Source: Plasmodiophora brassicae
Lineage: Eukaryota
DNA: 64,000 bases
Reading direction: 5' to 3'
NCBI GenBank assembly: GCA_036867785.1
Contig: CP145423.1
Location: 558,001 to 622,000, forward strand
Both the position numbers and the translations under genes were made by a program. The notes under the pieces were generated by a model, which saw nothing but the letters and a program-made list of their open reading frames with translations, was not told the origin of the DNA and made no database searches. Shown here in pieces: positions 34,481 through 46,046 of the stretch (within the stretch, counting starts at the first letter, position 1; the number at the start of each line of letters is the position of its first letter).

Positions 34481-35194
34481 CTACATCGGCGGTTGTTTGC
34501 AGATAGGGCAGCTGATCGCCCAGCGGTCAATGCACGCCTTGTGGAACGTATGTCGCCGGGTGCAGTTCAGACGTCGCGCCAGCTTCCCGTTCATGTTGTC
34601 GAAACAGATCAGGCAGGGGTCGGCCTTCTTCCATACCGTCGCGGCCGGCAGCACGCCCAGCAGGTGACGCTTCGCATGGAACGCCAGGCAGGCCGCCCAG
34701 ATGTCCCGTGCGCTTCCCGACCCAGCGTCCCGAGACAGCTTCCTGGGGTACAGGTAGTCGCGAACAATCTCGTGGTGTGGGAACGTGCCCGGTGTCGCAG
34801 TCTCGAGCTGGCGCGCCCGTTCGGCGAGCTCCATCGGGGTTGGGCAGGCGGGGGCGCGACAGGCAGATCGACCAGCCATGCACAGCGCAGCGCGAACCAA
34901 CAGGACGGCAAGCACCTGGGCGGGCACGAGCAACTTCTGAAAGTCGGACGTGCTCCAGGACAGCGCCGCTAGGCTGATCAGGATCGGCGCGGTGACGGCT
35001 GTGGCATAGGACAGCACTGGCAAGCGCTGACGCGACCGCACTTGCCCCATGGGCAACGGCGACGTCGACGGGTCCTCTGGCGTACTTGCCCGGCCAGTGG
35101 GCGACGCTGTCGTCAGGTTGTCGCCGGCGCCGTGGGCGACGGCCACGATGACGCTGATGGCAATGCAGGTCGCCAGAGCGGATACGCCCACCAT
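34481..35194 (-). CDS. Signal peptide + TM + RING-H2 E3 ligase, paralogue 3
   Basis: CLICFDNMNGKLARRLNCTRRHTFHKACIDRWAISCPIC; PGTFPHHEIV motif shared with paralogues. Confidence 0.85.
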   Translation of the reverse strand: MVGVSALATCIAISVIVAVAHGAGDNLTTASPTGRASTPEDPSTSPLPMGQVRSRQRLPVLSYATAVTAPILISLAALSWSTSDFQKLLVPAQVLAVLLVRAALCMAGRSACRAPACPTPMELAERARQLETATPGTFPHHEIVRDYLYPRKLSRDAGSGSARDIWAACLAFHAKRHLLGVLPAATVWKKADPCLICFDNMNGKLARRLNCTRRHTFHKACIDRWAISCPICKQPPM

Positions 35195-35555
35195 GAGCGA
35201 AACGATTGCTGATTGCGTGGCGCACTGCCTGCTGCTTGCGCCCGTCAGCACGCCTGCCAGACGACGACGACGCGTCCAAGGCTGCACCGGAAATAGCGGT
35301 CACCCGTCAAGCACTTCGTCAATCGTCAGCCTGTCAAAATCAGGGCGCGGCAGTCGTCGGGTCGGCCATCTGGTGAGCCCGGGTCGGCCATCTGGTGCAT
35401 CCGGGTCGGCCATCCGGGTGCGTCCGTGGCGACCTGGTTGAAGGCGAACCACGCCGCTCCGGGGACGGTAACCTGTCGCCCTGCGCCACTGTGGTGCCCC
35501 TGTTCGTTTCAGCGGCCGACCACCCTCGCAGCCATTCCAGAATGCATATGTATAT

Positions 35556-36347
35556 TCAGAGAGAGTTGAGTTTCAGCAGCACTGATCGTCGCTTGCATTC
35601 AGGGCAGGTTGTCGGTCGCCGGTCAATGCAGGTCATGTGGAACACGTGCCCGTCGTCACAGGCCAAGCGCCTGACCATTGTCCCGGCCATGGTCCCCAGG
35701 CAGATCGGGCACGGATGATCGTCGTCGGACAAGGTCGCATTCGGCAGGACACCCAGCAGGTGGCGTTCCGCCTGACACGCTAAACGAGCAGCCCAGGAGC
35801 CGAGCGAGGCCAACGCCCGGTTCGGGGACCCGGCGAAACCAGACAGCGCCCTGTAGCGAAGAAAGTGCTTCACCACCGTATCGTGTGGGAGCGATCCCGG
35901 CGATGCCTCCTTGAGCTGGTATGTGCGCTCGGCGAGTCGAACCAGGTGCAAAGCGTGGGCGTTCGCTTGGGCAATCATGCGGAATTTGGGTGCGACGACT
36001 ACAGGGACGTATCCGATAGCGCAGACGAGGGTCAGCAGGGTCACAGTGACGACAATGCGATATAACAGGTCGCGATCGACACAGGACGGTGCAATTAGAG
36101 GGCTGACCAGCGTAAGCGCTATAAACCAAGTGAGCATCCGGACGCGACGCTCCAGCATGCGAATGAACGCCTCCGACAATTGCCAATCGATGACGTTCAG
36201 GTACGACAGGTCGATAGGTGGCGGCGCTGCAAATGCAACCGAACCAGGCATAGGTAGCACCTCGCCCGTGACGTTGCTGGCGCCGTGGACGGCCACGCCA
36301 ACTACGCCGATGGCGATGCACGTCCTCAGGACGAGCTGGCCCACCAT
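35556..36347 (-). CDS. Signal peptide + 2 TM + RING-H2 E3 ligase, paralogue 4
   Basis: CPICLGTMAGTMVRRLACDDGHVFHMTCIDRRPTTCPEC; GYVPVVVAP and PGSLPHD motifs shared with paralogue 1. Confidence 0.85.
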   Translation of the reverse strand: MVGQLVLRTCIAIGVVGVAVHGASNVTGEVLPMPGSVAFAAPPPIDLSYLNVIDWQLSEAFIRMLERRVRMLTWFIALTLVSPLIAPSCVDRDLLYRIVVTVTLLTLVCAIGYVPVVVAPKFRMIAQANAHALHLVRLAERTYQLKEASPGSLPHDTVVKHFLRYRALSGFAGSPNRALASLGSWAARLACQAERHLLGVLPNATLSDDDHPCPICLGTMAGTMVRRLACDDGHVFHMTCIDRRPTTCPECKRRSVLLKLNSL

Positions 36348-37064
36348 CGACAGGTGGGTTGGCAACCGGAAATGCGCGCGGCGCAGACTCGCTGCGGATC
36401 GGAGCACCGAATCATCGCACCCAGCAACACCAGCGCCTCCTGTGTGCGCACACATGGCGCAACAGTTGGATTACTCAGCGGTCAGTCGCCGTCACTGGAT
36501 CGTGGCGTCCGCCCCTCCGCCCAATGATTCTGCGGGTGACCGTCGCCATTGGCGCCAGTTGTCGACCTGCGATGTTCACGGCCTCAGACCGCCATGGCTA
36601 CGATGCAACCACTCCCGCTCGTCAGAGCAAACCCAGCATACCGCTCAGTGGAGAGCGCGCCTATTATCGTTCCCAATAACAACCGAGTCGCATCGAGGGG
36701 CGTCAGCGGGAAGAATGCACGCAAAGGTTGGCGCCATGTGCGAAGCCAGCGAACACACAGTGATCGCTACCGGGTCGAAGACGTCGCGACGGATCCAGGC
36801 TGGCGTACGGTGATGAAATCGCGAGAACAAGTAGGCGACTGTGCCGACGACGATACAGGCCATTGCAGTAAAGTGCGCCGAGGAGCACCTCGTGGGGCGA
36901 ACGTGCACAGGTCACAGGCTGGAGAACGATTGCCCAGCTCGAACTTACATTTAAACAAACGTCTGGCGAGTCCCGTCAGTGCGTCTCATATGGGGAAGAC
37001 TGAGAGTTACGGTACGGCACTAATACATTGGAAGCATCCACGTCTGAACGACCAATGACGACCA

Positions 37065-39133
37065 TTACAGTTGCCATTCAATAGGGTCTGCGCCGCGTTC
37101 TTTGAGGAACGCGTTCGCACGGGAGAAGTGCCGGCACCCAAAGAACCCCCTTGAGGCAGATAGACCAGATGGGTGGGCGCATTTCAACACGAGAAACCTC
37201 GGATCATTGAGGCTGACGCCAAGACTGGAGACCTTCTTCTGAGCGAACTGTCCCCACAGCATGAACACAATGGGGTCCTTGGAGGTCCTGGTGACGACAG
37301 CCTTCAGGATGGCATCGGTGAACGTACTCCAGCCGAAATCTTTGTGGCTATTCGCTTCGCTTTTCCGGACCGTCAGCGAGGCATTGAGTAGCAGCACCCC
37401 CTAGGACCGAGGCGCGGTGAGAGACCGCAGTCACACGCCTCATCTGAGATACCCGTTCAGCCCAAGGGACGAGGTTGCCGCTGTCGGGAGCTTTGAATCC
37501 CGGAATGTCCGACTGCAACTCCTTGAAGATATTGTACAGGCTTGATGGGATCGCAACGCCTTTCGGTACGGAGAAGGAAAGACCTTCCGCTTGACCGGGC
37601 CCGTGATAAGGGTCCTGTCCGACGATGACAACCCGAACCTGGGTAGGTGGTCGCTTTAGAAGGTGGATGAAGCAATGGCATAACGCGAGAAACCTTATCG
37701 AGCGGGGTAAGCTGCAATGCCCGGTACACCATCTCAGAGGGAGGGAACACGGTTGCCCCCCGCTCTATTTCAACAGCCTAAACACGACTCAGGTCGAGTA
37801 TTCCGGCGTTGATACGAACACGGCACCGACGAGGGATTTTTGCAGGTTCTGGAAGTACGGCTTCCTGAATTCAGCTGCGAGCGCTTGCGACCAGGACGAG
37901 CCCAAGTCTACATTGGCGTACCCGCTGGCGGGAGCAGGTGCACTCTTTGGAGGTGGGGCGGCTTGCCGAGAGAAGAACGACATTAGACTCTGCTGTTTCG
38001 GCTTGATATTCGCGACTTTCTTGGTCGGTTTAGAAGGGGCCGCCGCCGCGCCTGCCTTCGACACCTGAACGCTTGTCTCCACCATCACGGTTTTGTCTTC
38101 GACAACTGCGGGCGTGGATGAGCCAACGAAGCGCAACTAGACCAGTAGATATGTACCGACCTAGGTACTTGCCCTTCTTGTACGTTTCCTGGACAGTGTT
38201 CTTGACGAGTTTCCGCACCGTCGAGTCAACCGGAGCCGCGTCTTCCTTGGCGGGCGACTCTTGGGCAGCAGCAGGCGGCAGCACAGGATCTTCTTCCATA
38301 CTGTCCTCCTTCCTGGCGTCGTCATCGTTCCGGACATCGTCAGGCGGGTCGTCAGCCATATTGCTTTCACCGTCGTCAAACGGATCGTCAACGGGACCAT
38401 CACGTTCATCCTCATCATCATCGTCCTCGTCGTCATCATCAGAAGACTGATTGGCGAGCATCGACGGAACCCTGTTCGCCGACGACGACTTTGACTTCGC
38501 GACGGCAACCCCCTTCTTCGAGGCGACCGGCGGCGCGGTGCCATTGGCCTTTGGCTTCTGCGCCGTCTCCTTTTTCACAACCGAACCTCGAGACAGGAAC
38601 GCCCTCATAGCAGCGCTCTCCTCCTTTGCCTTCTTCGGTGCCGGGGCCGGTTTCGCAGGCTCATCGGGCTTACGCTTGGGCATCGGGGCGGACGCAGCAG
38701 GTGGCGCAACGGGGACAGGCGCCGATGCTGTCCGTTCAATCGCCGCGGACGGTTGTATGACCGGGTCATGGGGCTGTGCAGCCTGCAACGCACTCGCCTG
38801 GCGCTGGGTCAGCGCGCGCAGGTCGCGATCGGCAGGTGATGACCCCTCAATTCGTGGCTCGACGCCATACACCTGAGCGCTGACGATCCTCCCAGGTAGG
38901 CCGCCCAGTGCGCTGTCGCCAACCAGGACAACGTTCAGCATCCCGGTCGTGTCGTCGACGACGCTGACCGCCACGGTCGCCGCGACGCGCGCCACCTGAT
39001 CCACCGCGAACTGCGTCAGGGCCCTCCTCGCCACCGACACACGGACCGCCGCCGATCGCGCCAGCCCCATCACCGACATCGGCCTCGACTCGTCAAGCAC
39101 GGCCGACGACAGCAACGACAGACAGGCGTCCAT
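37065..39133 (-). CDS. DNA polymerase delta subunit 3 (POLD3/Pol32/Cdc27)-like protein fused in frame to family-1 uracil-DNA glycosylase
   Basis: N-terminal POLD3-like winged-helix region ([16 protein letters not shown]...ARRALTQF...VVLV...SAQVYGVEP), charged linker, [18 protein letters not shown] across intron 38106-38160, and PIP box QQSLMSFF (37972-37995). With no stop, this runs into [54 protein letters not shown]. Confidence 0.85.
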
Positions 39134-39319
39134 CGATTGCCCGACCGATATCCCGAATGAGCAACTGCACGGCGCGCGCACCGGCCCCGTCGTCCCTCCA
39201 AAAAACGAGGGCCAAACGCACCGTCGAGTTGTACGCGATTTTTGGGGGCAGAAACGGTCGACTGGTGCAATTCCCCAGCGACGAACGCCCCCTCAACCGC
39301 ACATGCTGAATATACATGG

Positions 39320-40253
39320 CTATGTGCATTGGCAGTCGAGTGACCAGTGGATGGGATCGGCGTGGCGGGATGTGAGGAAATTGTTGGCGCGCGAGAAGTG
39401 CTGGCAGCCGAGGAAGCCGCGGTGGGCGGACAGGCCGGACGGGTGTGCACGTGTCAGGACTAGGAACCGGGGTTGCTTCCGCAGGGGCAGGTCCAGGGCG
39501 GCGACCTTCGCCTGGGCGTGCCGGCCCCACAGCATGAACACGGCCGGGCTCTCCGCGTCCCGTTCGACAACGGCCTTGAGGATCGCGTCCGTGAACCGGG
39601 ACCACCCGAGGTCTTTATGGCTGCCCGGCTCGTTAGCACGTACGGTCAAAGTCGCGTTCAATAACAGGACGCCCTATGACTGGGTTGAGTCGCGCGAAAA
39701 GGCACCCCGTCCTGGTCTGACACCAACCTGCATCGCCCAGGGCGTCAGGCTGCCGTTCGTCGGGTGGACCTTGAAGTTCGGGATATCCTTCGTCAGCTCC
39801 TGGAAGATGTTCTTCAGGCCGGACGGGAACGGGACGCTCGCGGGGACGGAAAAGGCCAACCCGTCGGCCTGCCCGGCGCCCGGGTAGGGGTCCTGGCCGA
39901 CGATCACTACGCGTACGCGTTCCAGCGGCGTCAACCGCAGGCAGCGGTAGACCAGGGCGGCCGGCGGGTAGACCTTGGCGCCGTGTTTCCCTTCATCGGC
40001 CTGGAACAACCGTCCCCGTCAGATGCCACTCGTCGACCCCGTCACGACACGCGTGCACCAGTGCGCGCTGCACGTCCTGGAAGTAGGGCATGGCGACCTG
40101 GGGCACCAGCGCCCTGTACCACCCCGGGCCGACCTGCTCCTCAGTGAAATCGGCGTACGCCTTGCAGAACGTGGTCGCAGGCGCCACCGCGTCGCTCAGC
40201 GATCGCGGGACGACGCCCGGCCGCGGCACGCGCCGCCAAGAACGGCTGATCAT
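39320..40253 (-). CDS. UNG: Second uracil-DNA glycosylase, probably mitochondrial; multi-exon
   Basis: Arg/Ser-rich N-terminus MISRSWRRVPRPGVVPRSLS. Motifs [31 protein letters not shown] and HPSGLSAHRGF. Confidence 0.9.
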
Positions 40254-40320
40254 GGCGGAATGGGCGTTGGACACGGTTGTGTGGCCGGGCTGCGCTCGAT
40301 AATACTCGCTGTCGTCTGTG

Positions 40321-40623
40321 ATGGAGGCGCAGCAGCAGCAGCAGGGCGAGTCATCGCCGGTGGACGGCGCGCACCGTCGCCAGGGGTCGCTGGTGGAGTT
40401 CCACGACCCGGGCGAGGCGTCCCAGGGGTACCTGGGATGGAAGTACAACGGCCTGGCATCGGTCGCGAACTTCGCCCACGGCGACACGTTCTGGGACGCG
40501 GCCGATGCCAAGGCGCCCGAGCACGATGCGCCTGCGGACGCACCGCCGTCGTCGCCGGCGACGAAGAAGAAGAAGGCGGCCAAGAAGGGGAAGGCGGCCG
40601 GGGAACACTCGACGTCGTCGTGA
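40321..40623 (+). CDS. Small hypothetical protein with Lys-rich tail
   Basis: ATG ORF divergent from the second UNG, strong GC3 codon bias, KKKKAAKKGK tail. Confidence 0.5.
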   Translation: MEAQQQQQGESSPVDGAHRRQGSLVEFHDPGEASQGYLGWKYNGLASVANFAHGDTFWDAADAKAPEHDAPADAPPSSPATKKKKAAKKGKAAGEHSTSS

Positions 40624-40635
40624 ACCTGTTGCTGC

Positions 40636-41189
40636 TCAATAGATGCCGTACAGGCCTGCTGTCTTGAGCCACATGGTCGATGTGGGGATCGGAACGGCGG
40701 TCCCCGCCGGGTCCGGTGCAGGGCAGGTCGGCCTCGGAAGCCACAGCGCTAGGCCGTTGATCTCGACGCGGACCAGGGCGTGGTCGGCGACGCTGGCCTC
40801 GGCGGCAGCGACCAGAGCGTTCCGGTGCCAGGTGCGAACGGCACGCGCCGCGTCGAGCCGGCGAAACGATCGCGCTAGATGGCGCCCGGCCCAGCGCAGA
40901 CGGTGCCGACGGCGCCACCGCCGCAGGTACCGTCGTAGGCGGCCGTGGACGACCCGAAGCGCGGCCCGGAAGCGGCGGCGCCGCGCGACGACGAGCGACC
41001 TCCAGGACGACATCGCCGAGCGCAGCGACCCGGATCGAGACGCCATGCGCCGGGCGACCTTCCTGATGGCCAGGTCCATGCCGGCGAAGCTGAACGACCG
41101 GGGCGTCAGTGGGCGCGCGTGCAGACCGCTGGTTGGCGCAGTCGTCCTACTCGACGTTGTCGTCGTCGGGGCAGTCGCTCGACGTCATG
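40636..41189 (-). CDS. Hypothetical Arg/Trp-rich helical protein (Sfi1-repeat-like)
   Basis: Exon MTSSDCPDDDNV splices in frame to DFAGMDLAIRKV... with periodic W motifs (AMSSWR, YLRRWR, AVRTWH). Confidence 0.4.
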
Positions 41190-41345
41190 CTCGGCCTGGT
41201 CGACGTGTTCGTGTGACGATCCACACGAAGCAACCGGGAGGCGGTTGGATGGATGAACAGCCGGGTGCGGGTTCCTGTGTGCTTTATAGTGTTATTTAAA
41301 CATCGGGTGGATCTATAATACGCGCGAGCGCGCGCGCGCCCGGGC

Positions 41346-44300
41346 TCACTCGACGACAGCGTCGACGGCATCGGGCAGAGCGTAGCCGATCGCAGACCGG
41401 GGCGACTTGTCGCTGACGGGCGAGGTCGCGCCTGAGCCGTGCGGCAGGTGCCGGCGGCCGCCGCCGTCGTCCGCCTCGCCGTCGGGGAACACGTCGTCCC
41501 GCAACTCGGGGACGTACGGCGCCAGGGTCGACCAGGTCAGGTCCCACAGCTTGTCGTCGAACCCGTCCGGGTCGGCGTGCACGACGCGCAGCGCGTTCTT
41601 CAGCGACTCGGTGACCGTTTCCGACAGCAGCGACTGCCCCGACTCCAGGCTGACGAACCGGCCCAGCGACGTCAGGACGGCCGCCCAGAGCTCCTCGAAC
41701 TGCGGCCGGTCCAGCCGTCGGATAACGGGCAGGCACGACAGGAACAGGCGGCAGACGAAGGACGAGACGGCACAGCGGCACTTCGACAGGTAGTGGGACG
41801 ACGATCGCGTCTCGGACAGGACCCGCATCATGGGCACGATGACCCGGTGGAAGACGTTCGCCCACGCGTCGGGAGGGAACTCGCGGGCCTCGGCCGACAG
41901 CAGGATCTGCTGGAGCGTCACCAGCGAATGCTCCCGCAGGCTGAACTTCTCGCTTGTGCAGACCACGATCCGGAGCGCGTCCAGGACCGACAGACGCAGC
42001 GCCTCCTGGTCGACCGGGAGCTCTGGCGCGGCGTCGTCCGCGCCCTGATCAGGAGCGGCAGCTGTGGGTTCGACCGAGGCGCCGTCGTCAGCGCTGGCCG
42101 CTCGACGGGGGCCATGCGCCGCAAGACCATCGATTCGGCTGTGCAGCAGCAGGAAGTACTCCACAGCACGGAGACGATCCGATACGGTGCCCATCTTGGA
42201 CTGGGCGAACTGGAGATCGACGCGGACGACCGTTTCGAACGTGTCGGCGGAAACGCCATCACAGGTGCGATCGGACAGGATCAGCGCGAGCGTCTCGAAC
42301 GCCGGGCTGTACGTGTGCGACGACGACGCGCAGCGCCTCAGCAGACTCAGGACGATTTTCCAGGCGCGCGCGTTCGGAATGATGGACGAGTTCGCCTGCA
42401 GGATGTGCAGAAGCCCGTTGGCGACCTGCACGGTTGTCAGCCACCGGTTCCAGATATGTAGGACCCTTCGAGGAGGCGCTGACCTGCTGCCCGATACGAT
42501 GGTTGGGATGCCGGACGACGTCGAACTGTGCACAGGTCTCCAGAACGGACACGACGGGCAGGTCGGGACTGTCCAGTGGCAGCAGCTTGAGGCACATCTG
42601 CAGGATGGCAACGCAAACGGCCTCGGCCATGGCGTCTGAAACGGTCAGGGCTTCGACGGTCGCCTTAGGGTGGAGGGTCAGCTCAGCGACATGGCGCAGC
42701 GCCCCTTCCGGATGGCTGCCGGGTTCGTCAGCAGCCATCATCTGCGACTGCAGCAGCCGCTGGAGATGTTCGGCAACGCGAGGCCAGACAAGCTGAGCGC
42801 GATCCCGATTCCGAACGACGACATTGCTCAGGAGCTGCAAGTAAAAGACAGATTGCTTGATGGCAAGCGCAACGTCCTCCTCGAACTTGGGCGCGTAGTG
42901 GTCGACGTCCGACTCGGGTTTGTGTGTCAGGCTCGTCAACGCGTCAACCAATGCATTGAGCGACTCTGCAGGCAGGTAAGCAGTGTCCGCCAATGATTCC
43001 TCGACATGGAGCCCTTCACAGAAGGCGCGGGCATGGTCTCGCGCGGCGTCCAGGCGCGTGGCAACGGACTCGGCATCAGACTGTGCAGGAATCAGCGAAA
43101 CGTGCGTGCGTTCGTGAAACGCGCACATGCCTGATCGCCTGATGCCATCAGGAAGCTCTGAACGGAGCTAAATAGCGACTGGAACGATATGGGCTTCGTG
43201 ACGTAATCGTCGAAGGCAAGATGCCGACGTAGTTCTTTGGCATCTTCTGTACAATACAGTTTAGACGAAACGTGTGTGCACTTGCAGGAATCCCGTACGG
43301 TGGCAGAAATCATCCAGGGCCGACATTGAGGGGGGCAGCAATCCCAGCCTGAGCAGTTGGAAGAGGACCGTCAGCCAACTGCCCCAGGACGTCGACATGC
43401 ATTCCGCGAGGAATGGCCGGAAGGCGAGTCTAACGGCCCGCTGTGCCTGCGACTGGGGCTCCCCCAATGCCAACACGACGTCCTCTAAGTGCAGCGTCAC
43501 GTCAAGCAGCCCTGTGCCAACCGTCAGTACGGGCAAGGGGTGAACCGTATGTCGCCAGGGTACCGGATATTTCACAGCCAAAGCTCACGACGCTGTCGAC
43601 GGCGGCGCTGCAGCGGTACTTGCATCCCAATGAGCCAACCATCTCCAAGGCATTGACGCAGAGGTCGAGAACCACGTTCTATGGCAGGAGACGGTTCAGC
43701 CAGGAAACGCGTTGGTGGGCGACACCACAACGTACCGTGTGGCTTAGGCCATACAGCACACAGACAGAACGCAAGATCGGTTGCCAGATTTCCCCAAACA
43801 GTTCAGCATCGAGCTGCGATCCGTGATAGATGCAATACCTGAGGCGTCGCCAAGCTTAGTGGAACCGGGCACAGGCGACCAGCAAACAGCGCCTACGATC
43901 TGCCCCAGTCGGAGTTGGACCGAGCGATCAGCTCCGACCACAGGCTTCGCGAGATCTCGCCTCCCGGTCCCGGGCTGGATATCTTCAGCTCCTCGCAGAC
44001 AATCGACTGGTACAAATCCTGCAGGAATTCCACAGAGAAGCTTTCGCCGTCGTTGATCCCGCGAACGTTCCGCATAAACTGGTCAAACGTCATCTTCTGT
44101 TTGATGCCATCGTTGTGGGCGTCCTAGCAGCGCGCATATCAGTTCAGCAAACAGCTGGCTAACGGAAAGCGCCGTACAGTGTTCAGCATGATCAGCGCGA
44201 ACGTCAAGATGTGCACAACGTCGGCGTTGGCGAAATCTCTCGAGTTGTGGTCGAAGTAGTGCAGGGAGAACGACTGGACAATGCGATCGATCTGCTGGGC

Positions 44301-46046
44301 CTCGACGGGCAGCCTGAAACCCTCGAGGCAGATCCTCAGCGCCTCGACAACGGTCTTGGCACGAAAGTCGAACAAGGAGATGAAGGCATCGCGCACCTCG
44401 CAGGATAACGGTTTGTGGCCACCCAGGAATTCGCCCAGCACCTGCTTATCAACGACGGGTGTCTGAAACAGCAGCCGGGCCAACCCGTTGGCGTCGTGCC
44501 CGGATTCAATCAGGCCATTCGCTTCGAATGCCGCAATGCCCGCCTTCGGCTTCGCGTTGAACGCCGACACGCACTCGAACAGGATGGATTTCCGCGATCG
44601 CGTCGCCCGAAGCGATTCGACATCGAGGGAACCGTCGGCGCCCGGCGCTTTCGCGAACGAATCCAGGACGGCAAACAGGCAGCGCGCCGCAAGGACATGG
44701 TTGCCCGTCGGCGACGCTGATTCAGCGGGGAACGCGGCTGCGCACAGAAACCGGACGACATTGCTGAAGACGTTCGTGGCGCGCAGGCAGCAATCGTAGT
44801 TGATGAACAGTTCCCGGTAGACGCCCGGCAGGCGGGCTAGATCCGCTAGGCTCTCCAGCACAATCTCCTGGACTTCGGGCGGCGCCTCCGACTTGCCCAA
44901 GAAGACGGTGTTGACAAGGACCTCGATCTGAACCTTGAAGTGCGCGCGAAGGTTCGAAACGATGACGAAGGCGATGCGAACGACGAGGGCGACGACCGAC
45001 GTCACCTGCGATCGTGCGTTCTGCAGAAGGAACGCGCAGACGTCGTCCTGGATCAGGCACAGCAACGACCTGTCCTGGGCCAGGTCGTTGCCGCCGTGCA
45101 CGATCGCCTCCAGGATCAAGTGCAGGACGAGTTCGACGGTGCGGACGTTGCCGGTGGTACGCTGCGACGCAGCACGACCCATGGCGACCAGGTTGCCGAG
45201 GACCTTCACCATGCAGGCCACCCCGAACCGCTGCTCGATGTGTGGCGTATTGGTGGAATGCGCACGGTCCAGGACGTCGTCGTTGCCCGCGACCGCGGCG
45301 GCCACGCGCGCGAACACGACCCTGACCATTTCGAAGAGCGAGTGCCGGGCGCGGTCGCCGAGCAGCTGAGAGTACTCGGGCGGGCGCATCTGACGGTTGA
45401 TCCGGAAACAGGTCTGGACCATTTCCCAGACGGTCGTGTCCGACAGGTACGCGGCGTGCTCGACGGCGAGGCACGCCAGGTGCACCTGCAGGATCTGCAT
45501 GAGGACCAGCTCGTCGTGGCCGGCATCGGTCGCCTCGAACCGGCAGTGCGTGCCCGCGTCGGCGATGTCGGCGACGGCGGCGGCCGCATGCGCCGACGCC
45601 GCCGCGAACATGCCCGATGTCAGGAATCGGTACAGCGACGACAGGGCGGCGCCCGTGATCGGCCCGCTGGTCTCCTCCGAACGAATGGCGGCCACGAACG
45701 GACGGATCAACTCCAACCTGTCGAACTCGTCGCCGATGCCTGAGACGAACCATGAACGACAGCAGTGCAACGCAGGGCAGCGTACCCCGCATACCGTCTG
45801 TATTGTCGAGCGACCATCTAAGGTTCTGGAAGCTCTGCATCAGCCACGGTTCCTCGACGTACGCGCCATCCTGCACGCCCCCCCGCGTTCAGTACGAGCC
45901 GGGCGAGCGTCGCGCGCGCGGAGCCGTACCGTCGAGCGCCACCGGCGATTCTGTCGCATGACGCGCATCACCTCGAGCGTCTCGCCGACGACCAGGTCGT
46001 GGTGCAGGCGGCAGCGGCGCCGCGCGGCGTCGTCCGCCATGGCCAT
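41346..46046 (-). CDS. GBF1: Large Sec7-domain ARF guanine exchange factor, GBF1/GNOM type; multi-exon
   Basis: DCB region (PFVAAIRSEETSGPITGAALSS, HCRFEATD), HUS box (ELFINYDC) and Sec7 domain (FNAKPKAGI, LGEFLG, FRLPVEAQQIDRI, IMLNT|DAHN, RGINDG). Confidence 0.92.

What the first reader, a model, noticed from the sequence alone, without database searches (positions are those of the whole stretch)
37065..39133. DNA polymerase delta subunit POLD3/Pol32 fused to uracil-DNA glycosylase through a shared PIP box
Seen: a POLD3-like ORF splices over a canonical 55-nt intron (38106-38160) into [11 protein letters not shown]...[13 protein letters not shown]. With no stop, this continues via a short Pro/Ala linker into a full family-1 UNG with intact GQDPYH, LLLN and HPS motifs. 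Known: POLD3/Pol32 normally ends just after its C-terminal PIP box, and nuclear UNG2 begins with a PIP box, so one motif occupies both positions here. Poxviruses build UNG (D4) into their polymerase holoenzyme, but I know of no covalent equivalent in a cellular replisome. Inference: Pol delta in this lineage carries a tethered uracil-excision module coupling base-excision repair to replication.
Basis: partly seen in the sequence, partly recalled or inferred. Interest (0 to 1): 0.9.

Follow-up and report, generated by a model that had tools for sequence, protein, structure and literature searches.

The report
Polymerase-delta subunit fused to uracil glycosylase
In the clubroot parasite Plasmodiophora brassicae, the third subunit of the replicative DNA polymerase delta and a complete uracil-removing repair enzyme are written as one expressed gene joined at a single clamp-binding motif, which would physically tie uracil repair to DNA replication.

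Summary
On the minus strand, 39133..37065 is a five-exon, 617-codon frame with no stop. Two of those contigs each span the whole frame with no base differences. The organism is Plasmodiophora brassicae.

The N-half misses Pfam CDC27's cut-off, but other tests place it in the POLD3/Cdc27/Pol32 family:
- An exhaustive phmmer search found only Spongospora "DNA polymerase delta subunit 3" and two proteins that pass CDC27.
- hhalign gives 97.3% probability over the N-terminal domain.
- The architecture is collinear down to the C-terminal PIP box.

The only PIP motif, at residues 362-369, sits 22 residues before a complete family-1 UNG domain.

The fusion is not shared by Spongospora, whose POLD3 stands alone at 384 aa. 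A free-standing, faster-evolving UNG paralogue lies just upstream. The public gene model wrongly merges it with this gene.

Not shown:
- the protein itself
- absence of an internal UNG transcription start
- absence of a second POLD3 in the genome

I rate it a new variant of known parts, with moderately high interest.

The parts
38161..39133 (-). Exon 1: POLD3-like residues 1-324 plus the first base of codon 325. It holds the start codon, the N-terminal domain, Lys/Pro-rich stretches with an internal hydrophobic-Phe motif (around residue 176-182), and the acidic run.
   Evidence: Translation. The start aligns with the Spongospora POLD3 start (M1, D2 and C4 invariant). It is contiguous in RNA contigs.
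38858..39124 (-). N-terminal domain of POLD3/Cdc27 type, residues 4-92. In known POLD3 this is the winged-helix part that binds the second subunit (recalled).
   Evidence: hhalign of A2 against A3 gives probability 97.3 and E 2.6e-11 over 4-92. BLASTP to Halteromyces Cdc27 covers 7-93 at 32% identity, E 1e-10.
38106..38160 (-). Intron 1, 55 nt, GT..AG
   Evidence: Sequence. Skipped in 4 of 4 runs (joint 38105>38161).
37831..38105 (-). Exon 2: POLD3 C-terminal motif, Lys-rich tail, PIP box, 22-residue Pro/Ala linker and the first helix of UNG, all in one exon
   Evidence: Weak Pfam CDC27 hit to the profile's last positions, 407-442 of 443 (E 0.005, 16.7 bits).
37972..37995 (-). PIP box QQSLMSFF, residues 362-369. 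It is the only match to Q-x-x-[ILMV]-x-x-[FYW]-[FYW] in the 617 aa.
   Evidence: Regex. It aligns with the C-terminal PIP of Halteromyces Cdc27.
37065..37905 (-). Family-1 uracil-DNA glycosylase catalytic domain, residues 392-617, interrupted by introns 2-4, with stop TAA at 37067-37065
   Evidence: phmmer to solved UNGs gives E 6e-71 over the whole catalytic domain. NCBIfam UNG equivalogs pass. Motifs.
37778..37830 (-). Intron 2, 53 nt, GT..AG. If retained, the frame stops at 37791-37789.
   Evidence: Skipped in 4 of 4 runs.
37639..37693 (-). Intron 3, 55 nt, GT..AG
   Evidence: Skipped in 4 of 4 runs.
37401..37452 (-). Intron 4, 52 nt, GT..AG. The upstream paralogue has an intron at the same position.
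   Evidence: Skipped in 4 of 4 runs.
39320..40253 (-). Free-standing tandem UNG paralogue, 273 aa, with introns at 39674-39727 and 40001-40058. It has an Arg-rich N-terminus and no PIP, and reads GQDPYP in place of GQDPYH. It is context for the fusion, not part of the fused gene.
   Evidence: Its introns are skipped, and it lies on contigs separate from the fused gene in X5, X6 and X8. It is 61% identical to the fused UNG, its sister in the tree, and evolves faster.

Best explanation
This is a genuine, expressed, in-frame gene fusion in Plasmodiophora brassicae. A complete POLD3/Cdc27/Pol32-type third subunit of DNA polymerase delta is joined to a complete, slowly evolving family-1 uracil-DNA glycosylase.

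The POLD3 part has the N-terminal domain, a disordered basic and acidic middle, the C-terminal motif and the PIP box. It does not stop a few residues after its PIP box. It continues through about 22 Pro/Ala-rich residues into the UNG domain.

Inferred mechanism:
- The N-terminal domain docks the protein on the second subunit of Pol delta, and probably of Pol zeta, which shares this subunit in yeast and human (recalled).
- The single PIP box holds the protein on PCNA.
- The UNG domain hangs on a short tether next to the clamp and scans freshly made duplex.
- Misincorporated dUMP is therefore excised immediately behind the polymerase.

This is the job that free UNG2 does in animals through its own N-terminal PIP box. 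Here the 'UNG2-type N-terminus' is a whole polymerase subunit. The neighbouring free paralogue, with its Arg-rich N-terminus, may serve the organelle.

Shown: the reading frame, splicing, transcript continuity, homology of both halves, and absence of the fusion in Spongospora. Inferred: translation as one chain, incorporation into Pol delta, PCNA binding, and glycosylase activity.
For: (1) Frame and RNA. The 617-codon frame has no stop across four GT..AG introns. All four introns are skipped in contigs of 4 of 4 runs from 4 studies. X5 record 4 and X8 record 14 each cover 5'UTR to 3'UTR. No other letters or indels are listed in the gene.

(2) The N-half is POLD3.
- phmmer of exon 1 against 1.84 billion representatives gave 4 hits. 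One is itself. The others are Spongospora subterranea 'DNA polymerase delta subunit 3' (E 7e-7, aligned 1-315), P0006 and Halteromyces Cdc27.
- The last two pass Pfam CDC27 at 2e-12 and 3e-36.
- hhalign of the phytomyxid pair against that pair gives probability 97.3 and E 2.6e-11.
- MAFFT shows collinear motifs, including the one split by intron 1 and the terminal PIP.

(3) The UNG half.
- E 6e-71 to solved UNGs over the full catalytic domain.
- NCBIfam equivalogs pass.
- GQDPYH, LLLN and HPS are intact.
- It sits on a short branch (0.074, against 0.72 for the paralogue).
- It has fewer unique changes than the paralogue with 7 of 7 outgroups. This suggests it is the constrained copy.

(4) Eukaryote UNGs do carry an N-terminal PIP. 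The strict motif lies within the first 15 residues in 4 of 20 named long eukaryote UNGs examined.

(5) No second Plasmodiophora POLD3-like protein appeared.
Against: - Pfam CDC27 is not reached. Exon 1 gives no hit. Exon 2 gives 16.7 bits against a cut-off of 24.5. The public model P0003, which contains the spliced junction, gives no CDC27 hit at E<=1.
- P0001 alone, and the two-sequence phytomyxid profile, do not hit solved POLD3. Only the profile that includes P0006 and P0007 does.
- Contigs cannot show single molecules, transcript starts or rare isoforms (caveats). An internal start giving a separate UNG from Met366, or retention of intron 2 giving a UNG-less POLD3, is therefore not excluded.
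- No protein-level data exist here.
- The fusion is absent from the nearest relative available (Spongospora), so it is not needed for Pol delta in phytomyxids generally.
- No whole genome was held. 'Only POLD3' rests on protein databases alone.
- The fold of the N-terminal domain could not be tested.
Confidence: 0.75

Rival explanations
1. Dual-output locus. The fused frame exists, but most UNG is made separately from an internal promoter inside the POLD3 part, starting at Met366 within the PIP box and giving about 252 aa. Alternatively, most POLD3 is made without UNG through retention of intron 2, which brings a stop at 37791-37789. On this reading the tethered form is minor.
For: Met366 would give a UNG of ordinary length, and the free paralogue is 273 aa. 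Read-through of intron 2 ends in a stop 16 codons on. Contigs cannot show starts, ends or rare variants (text). The genome is dense, and one X1 contig runs over several genes.
Against: No alternative joint and no intron-retaining contig was listed in any of the 4 runs. A UNG starting at Met366 would lose the Q and L of the PIP motif. Many ATGs precede Met366 on the full mRNA. POLD3 has no stop of its own in the spliced frame.
Confidence: 0.18
2. The N-half is a captured, diverged copy of POLD3 that now serves only as a nuclear and PCNA-targeting arm for UNG. A separate canonical POLD3 elsewhere in the genome serves Pol delta.
For: The N-half is too diverged to pass Pfam CDC27. It is only 29-32% identical to Spongospora POLD3. 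The whole genome could not be searched.
Against: The exhaustive phmmer search found no other Plasmodiophora relative among its 4 hits. Spongospora's own stand-alone POLD3 fails Pfam as well, so the divergence is lineage-wide and not a sign of decay. Every landmark is kept in order: start, N-terminal domain, internal motif, acidic run, C-terminal motif and PIP.
Confidence: 0.07
3. Artefact: an assembly error, a missed stop or frameshift, or chimeric RNA contigs joining two neighbouring genes.
For: The public model for this locus is itself a wrong merge of two genes. This shows that automated models here are unreliable.
Against: Independent contigs from 4 studies agree base for base with the window over 36913-39246, including the junction. 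The junction between PIP and UNG lies inside one exon. The frame is kept across all four observed splice joints.
Confidence: 0.02

Closest known systems
POLD3 / Cdc27 / Pol32, third subunit of DNA polymerase delta (Pfam PF09507)
   Same: It shares the homologous N-terminal domain, a long disordered charged middle, the C-terminal motif and a PIP box, at about the same length (372 aa here, 384 in Spongospora, 379 in Halteromyces).
   Different: Known members end a few residues after the PIP. Spongospora ends 7 residues after and Halteromyces 3. This one continues into an enzyme domain. It also scores below Pfam's cut-off.
Nuclear uracil-DNA glycosylase UNG2 of animals, and PIP-bearing UNGs of other eukaryotes
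   Same: [quoted passage not shown] The function is taken from the abstracts of PMC8053108 and PMC13292882 as shown in the search listing. N-terminal PIPs were seen.
   Different: In UNG2 the PIP is at the very N-terminus of a short disordered arm. Here the 'arm' is a whole polymerase subunit. The PIP-to-GQDPY distance is 89 residues here, against 131-284 in the long forms examined.
Human UNG1/UNG2: one catalytic domain with alternative mitochondrial or nuclear N-termini (recalled)
   Same: Two N-terminal addresses sit on one kind of catalytic domain. Here an Arg-rich N-terminus is on the free paralogue and a PIP-bearing one on the fused copy.
   Different: Here the two forms are separate tandem genes, 61% identical, and not isoforms of one gene. 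The organelle role of the paralogue is inferred from composition only.
Poxvirus DNA polymerase holoenzyme E9-A20-D4, where D4 is a UNG
   Same: A uracil-DNA glycosylase is a built-in part of a replicative polymerase assembly (abstracts of PMC3946371, PMC5682278 and PMC10253040, as shown in the search listing).
   Different: D4 is held non-covalently through A20 and acts as the processivity factor in place of a PCNA-type clamp. Here the link is covalent, to a PCNA-binding accessory subunit, in a cellular genome. There is no homology of the linking parts.
Prokaryote-type UNG fusions to other repair enzymes
   Same: A family-1 UNG is joined in one chain to another DNA-repair module. Among the 120 long UNG proteins listed, fusions appear with HhH-GPD/endonuclease III, photolyase and AP-endonuclease-2 families.
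   Different: Those partners are repair enzymes. None of the 120 listed carries PF09507 or any replisome subunit.

Membership tests
POLD3/Cdc27/Pol32 (PF09507) | Scores above Pfam CDC27's gathering cut-off | tested here: not met
   Exon 1 gives no hit at E<=1. Exon 2 gives 16.7 bits against a cut-off of 24.5, on profile positions 407-442 of 443. P0003 gives no CDC27 hit. The exact 617-aa spliced chain was not scanned as one piece. Spongospora POLD3 also fails.
POLD3/Cdc27/Pol32 (PF09507) | N-terminal domain homologous to that of accepted members | tested here: met
   phmmer library-wide gives E 3.8e-5 and 5.8e-4 to P0006 and P0007, which pass CDC27 at 2e-12 and 3e-36. hhalign gives probability 97.3 and E 2.6e-11 over residues 4-92. 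BLASTP gives 1e-10.
POLD3/Cdc27/Pol32 (PF09507) | N-terminal domain adopts the winged-helix fold of solved POLD3 (3E0J, 6S1M) | not tested
   The structure job failed and the tool then took no jobs. A four-sequence profile hits 6s1m_C and 3e0j_B at about 1e-18, but P0006 and P0007 drive that match. P0001 alone and the two-sequence profile A2 do not hit them.
POLD3/Cdc27/Pol32 (PF09507) | PIP box at the C-terminal end of the POLD3 part, after a Lys-rich tail and the conserved T-Y...G-[YF]-L motif | tested here: met
   QQSLMSFF at 362-369 aligns with the Halteromyces terminal PIP. The preceding motif aligns in all three full-length sequences and spans the intron-1 joint.
POLD3/Cdc27/Pol32 (PF09507) | Binds the second subunit and is part of Pol delta | not testable with these tools
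   No P. brassicae POLD2 or PCNA sequence was in hand, and no genome was held.
Family-1 uracil-DNA glycosylase (UNG; PF03167, TIGR00628) | Full-length match to the catalytic domain above curated cut-offs | tested here: met
   PDB UNGs match at E 6e-71, with P0003 residues 476-700 against chain residues 4-221. TIGR00628 scores 455 bits against a cut-off of 185.75. That whole-protein score includes the second UNG stretch of P0003, but the best stretch is 478-693, which is the fused copy. Pfam UDG on exons 4 and 5 is.
Family-1 uracil-DNA glycosylase (UNG; PF03167, TIGR00628) | Catalytic and uracil-pocket motifs GQDPYH, LLLN and HPS followed by the inserting Leu (roles recalled from human and E. 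coli UNG) | tested here: met
   All are present once each at residues 451, 509 and 582, and HPS is followed by G-L. The free paralogue has GQDPYP instead.
Family-1 uracil-DNA glycosylase (UNG; PF03167, TIGR00628) | Uracil excision activity | not testable with these tools
   This needs an enzyme assay.
PIP-box PCNA ligands | Q-x-x-[ILM]-x-x-[FY]-[FY] in a disordered stretch | tested here: met
   There is a single strict match in 617 aa, flanked by a Lys-rich stretch and a Pro/Ala-rich stretch. PCNA binding itself was not tested.
Poxvirus-type polymerase-UNG holoenzyme (E9-A20-D4) | UNG serves as the processivity factor through an A20-like bridge | not tested
   This is an analogy of function only. 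No A20-like or E9-like sequence is involved, and it is not filed as a member.

The most novel reading that the evidence does not exclude
The fused chain is the only POLD3 of P. brassicae and its main nuclear UNG. Every Pol delta holoenzyme, and Pol zeta if the subunit is shared as in yeast and human, would then carry a covalently tethered active uracil glycosylase at the PCNA clamp. This would be the first cellular counterpart of the poxvirus polymerase-UNG holoenzyme. Uracil excision would become stoichiometric with DNA synthesis, and abasic sites would be created right where a translesion polymerase that shares the subunit can act.
Probability: 0.45. Interest if true: 0.75.

Novelty: new variant of a known kind. 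Interest (0 to 1): 0.62.

Why it matters
Coupling of UNG2 to the replication fork through PCNA is well known in animals. In cells it has been seen as a transient, regulated contact between separate proteins. A natural covalent fusion of UNG to a core accessory subunit of the replicative polymerase gives 'Rosetta-stone' evidence that the two act together.

It also offers a ready-made system for asking what happens when uracil excision is obligatorily tied to Pol delta, and possibly Pol zeta. The questions include processivity, Okazaki-fragment maturation, tolerance of abasic sites and mutation spectrum.

It corrects a public gene model that hides both the POLD3 identity and a separate neighbouring UNG gene. 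Four literature searches found no description of such a fusion. Supplementary tables of genome papers could not be seen and might list the locus.

Tried and rejected
- Whole genome of the window: none held. A second POLD3 could not be sought by tblastn.
- Word-indexed homologue search with exon 1. The 'longer' setting gave only the public P. brassicae model. The 'near' setting gave only the window's own unspliced ORF.
- Metagenome scans with the exon-2 peptide and with the phytomyxid POLD3 alignment: no relative found.
- The look-up of sequencing runs listed no holder on record as RNA. The laid contigs nevertheless lack the introns. Depths from contigs were not used to rank genes or halves of the gene.
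- Structure prediction of the N-terminal domain: the job failed, and the tool then took no jobs. No fold search was run.
- P0001 alone and the two-sequence profile A2 against PDB: no POLD3 hit.
- A 30-letter loose end seen at 37541 in all four runs was sought in the window and not found. A local alternative exon was therefore rejected as its source, and its origin stays open.
- The careful ML tree did not finish, so the quick tree was used.
- Horizontal origin of the UNG from the bacterial HhH-GPD-UDG group was considered because of their high bit scores. It was rejected: those proteins have two UDG stretches, and the tree puts both P. brassicae copies on the side that holds the eukaryotes.
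- Complex prediction was not used. No P. brassicae PCNA or POLD2 sequence was in hand.
Full report
**What is there.** Read on the minus strand, the window has an ATG at 39133 and an open frame to 38161. A second exon (38105..37831) carries the motif QQSLMSFF and runs on without a stop. Joined, the five exons give 1854 nt, or 617 codons, ending at TAA 37067..37065. The only stop is the terminal one. QQSLMSFF at residues 362-369 is the only PIP-type match. GQDPYH, LLLN and HPS lie at residues 451, 509 and 582. Unspliced, the frame would end after 367 aa.

**Is it transcribed as one piece?**
- The look-up of sequencing runs listed twenty holders, none on record as RNA.
- I laid four of them, from four studies with four organism labels, on 36000-41500.
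- In 4 of 4 runs the contigs skip all four introns at the canonical ends, so they derive from spliced RNA.
- X5 record 4 (2119 nt, 36913-39246) and X8 record 14 (2215 nt, 36766-39195) each run from 5'UTR to 3'UTR of the fused frame.
- X6 covers it in two overlapping pieces. X1 covers it in a 10.6-kb contig that also crosses neighbouring genes.
- No other letters or indels are listed anywhere in the gene. The one listed difference, at 39479, lies in the neighbour gene.
- The tool's own caveats apply. Contigs show neither single molecules, nor starts or ends, nor rare isoforms, and I did not use depth to rank anything.

**Organism and public model.** The word-indexed search returned one longer protein, P0003. 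It is 701 aa and named 'Uracil-DNA glycosylase [Plasmodiophora brassicae]', hypothetical protein PBRA_006831.
- That model merges the upstream UNG paralogue with this gene through one predicted intron. It removes the acidic region through another.
- Neither joint appears among the six joints. The contigs are continuous across both stretches.
- Its precomputed Pfam list shows only the UDG domain, so the polymerase-subunit half is not recognised in the databases.

**Is the N-half POLD3?**
- Pfam says no by its own cut-off. Exon 1 has no hit. Exon 2 has a sub-threshold CDC27 hit (E 0.005, 16.7 bits against 24.5) to the last 36 profile positions, which hold the PIP. P0003 has none.
- An exhaustive phmmer search of exon 1 against 1.84 billion representatives gave four hits. 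They are the window's own unspliced ORF, P0005 (E 7e-7, aligned over 1-315), P0006 (E 3.8e-5) and P0007 (E 5.8e-4).
- P0005 is Spongospora subterranea 'DNA polymerase delta subunit 3'. P0007 is Halteromyces radiatus 'DNA polymerase subunit Cdc27'.
- P0006 and P0007 pass Pfam CDC27 at 2e-12 and 3e-36. P0005, like the window's protein, does not.
- Profile-profile comparison of the phytomyxid pair with the CDC27 pair gives 97.3% probability and E 2.6e-11 over residues 4-92. BLASTP to P0007 gives 1e-10 over the same domain.
- A four-sequence profile hits solved human POLD3 (6s1m_C, 3e0j_B) at about 1e-18. The two accepted members drive that match, because the window's sequence alone and the phytomyxid pair alone do not hit.
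- The MAFFT alignment is collinear from start to end. It shows the N-terminal domain, an internal hydrophobic-Phe motif, the acidic run, a T-Y...G-[YF]-L motif that spans the intron-1 joint, a Lys-rich tail and the PIP box, which aligns with the terminal PIP of the fungal protein.
- I conclude that the N-half is a diverged but complete POLD3. The fold test could not be run.

**The UNG half.**
- It matches solved family-1 UNGs from cod, E. coli and human at E 6e-71 to 1e-64 over the whole catalytic domain.
- It passes the NCBIfam UNG equivalogs.
- By the offset of 84 between P0003 and the 617-aa chain, the catalytic domain is residues 392-616. That leaves 22 residues between the PIP and the domain.
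- Homology to the upstream paralogue already starts about 15 residues after the PIP.

**The 'shared PIP' claim.** The motif sits where POLD3 proteins end. Spongospora ends 7 residues after its PIP and Halteromyces 3. It also sits where eukaryote UNGs begin. Of 20 named long eukaryote UNGs, 4 have the strict motif within their first 15 residues (Klebsormidium, Raphidocelis, Amphibalanus, Balamuthia), and several others have near-matches. One motif therefore does stand in both positions. Whether it descends from the POLD3 gene or the UNG gene cannot be told.

**The neighbour and the history.**
- Just upstream on the same strand (40253..39320) lies a free UNG of 273 aa. Its two introns are both spliced in the RNA contigs. 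In X5, X6 and X8 it lies on contigs separate from the fused gene.
- It has no PIP, an Arg-rich N-terminus (5 Arg and 1 acidic residue in the first 30), and GQDPYP in place of GQDPYH.
- It is 61% identical to the fused UNG. Two of its intron positions coincide with introns 2 and 4 of the fused gene.
- In a quick ML tree of 119 UNG domains the two copies are sisters (SH-aLRT 99). The fused copy is on a short branch (0.074) and the free one on a long branch (0.72).
- Relative-rate counts with seven outgroups give more unique changes in the free copy in 7 of 7 (21-30 against 4-13; p from 6e-5 to 0.048). The fused UNG is the conservative copy, which suggests it is the constrained one.
- Spongospora's POLD3 is a stand-alone 384-aa protein. 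The fusion therefore arose after the two genera split, or was lost in Spongospora.

**Is the architecture known elsewhere?**
- A search for long UNG-domain proteins (385-1227 aa) found 1077, of which the best 120 were listed. None of those 120 carries PF09507.
- The fusions seen are to HhH-GPD/endonuclease III, photolyase, AP-endonuclease-2 and assorted others.
- Only 120 of 1077 could be seen, and a diverged POLD3 would not be flagged, since P0003 itself is not.
- Two metagenome scans found no relatives.
- Literature searches found no natural fusion. I searched for POLD3 + UNG + fusion, Pol32 + UNG + gene fusion, Plasmodiophora + UNG, and the locus tag. For these I saw search listings and abstract starts only.

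**How it most likely works.** By homology, the N-terminal domain binds the second subunit of Pol delta and the PIP binds PCNA. These roles are recalled from work on human POLD3 and yeast Pol32. The UNG domain would then sit on a 22-residue tether at the clamp. [quoted passage not shown] Here the same end would be reached by making UNG part of the polymerase. Poxviruses build a UNG (D4) into their polymerase holoenzyme through A20 (abstracts of PMC3946371 and PMC5682278). There it is non-covalent and acts as a processivity factor. Because Pol32/POLD3 is shared with Pol zeta in yeast and human (recalled), the tethered UNG might also be delivered with the translesion polymerase. That last point is speculation.

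**What remains open.**
- Translation as one chain.
- Whether an internal start gives a separate UNG from Met366, or intron-2 retention gives a UNG-less POLD3.
- Whether a second POLD3 exists in the genome. None was seen, and no genome was held.
- PCNA and POLD2 binding.
- Enzyme activity.

**Verdict.** The functional inference is reasonable but untested. I rate it a new variant of known parts, so far seen in one species and wrongly modelled in public annotation. Interest is about 0.6.

Noticed in passing
window 39320-40253 (-): A free-standing tandem UNG paralogue of 273 aa with an Arg-rich, PIP-less N-terminus and GQDPYP in place of GQDPYH. It is sister to the fused UNG but on a roughly tenfold longer branch. 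It may be an organelle-targeted or functionally shifted copy.
   Followed up: partly
window 37065-40253 (-); protein P0003: The public 701-aa model (PBRA_006831, 'Uracil-DNA glycosylase') merges the upstream UNG with the POLD3-UNG gene and drops the acidic region. Neither of its two extra introns is seen in the RNA contigs of four runs. Two genes of 273 and 617 aa fit the data.
   Followed up: yes
window 37541 and 40329: In all four runs a contig fits the window only up to 37541, inside UNG exon 4 and over about 70 nt judging by the depth excess. It then continues with the same unrelated GC-rich letters in every run. Another contig fits only from 40329 onward. The 30-letter continuation at 37541 is not in the window. 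It may be a partial copy of the UNG exon elsewhere in the genome, or a chimeric transcript.
   Followed up: partly
proteins P0008-P0051 (metagenome records): The highest-scoring long relatives of the UNG domain are proteins of about 700-800 aa that combine an HhH-GPD/endonuclease III domain with two UDG stretches. Deinococcus-type proteins join UDG to photolyase, and others join it to an AP-endonuclease-2 domain.
   Followed up: partly
window 32714-36470 (-) and 41346-45611 (-): Three tandem genes with C-terminal RING-finger hits (all below Pfam's cut-offs) lie downstream of the fused gene, and a GBF1/Sec7-type ARF-GEF lies upstream. None has an evident link to replication or repair.
   Followed up: partly
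window 36000-41500: One RNA-type contig of run X1 (10.6 kb) runs through several genes and the stretches between them, with all six introns removed. This points to very dense or overlapping transcription units in this genome.
   Followed up: no
window about 38590-38610 (-), residues around 176-182: An internal hydrophobic-Phe motif after a Lys/Pro-rich stretch aligns with a similar motif in Spongospora POLD3. P0006 has a similar motif that MAFFT placed a few columns upstream. It resembles a degenerate second PIP-like motif, and its role is unknown here.
   Followed up: no
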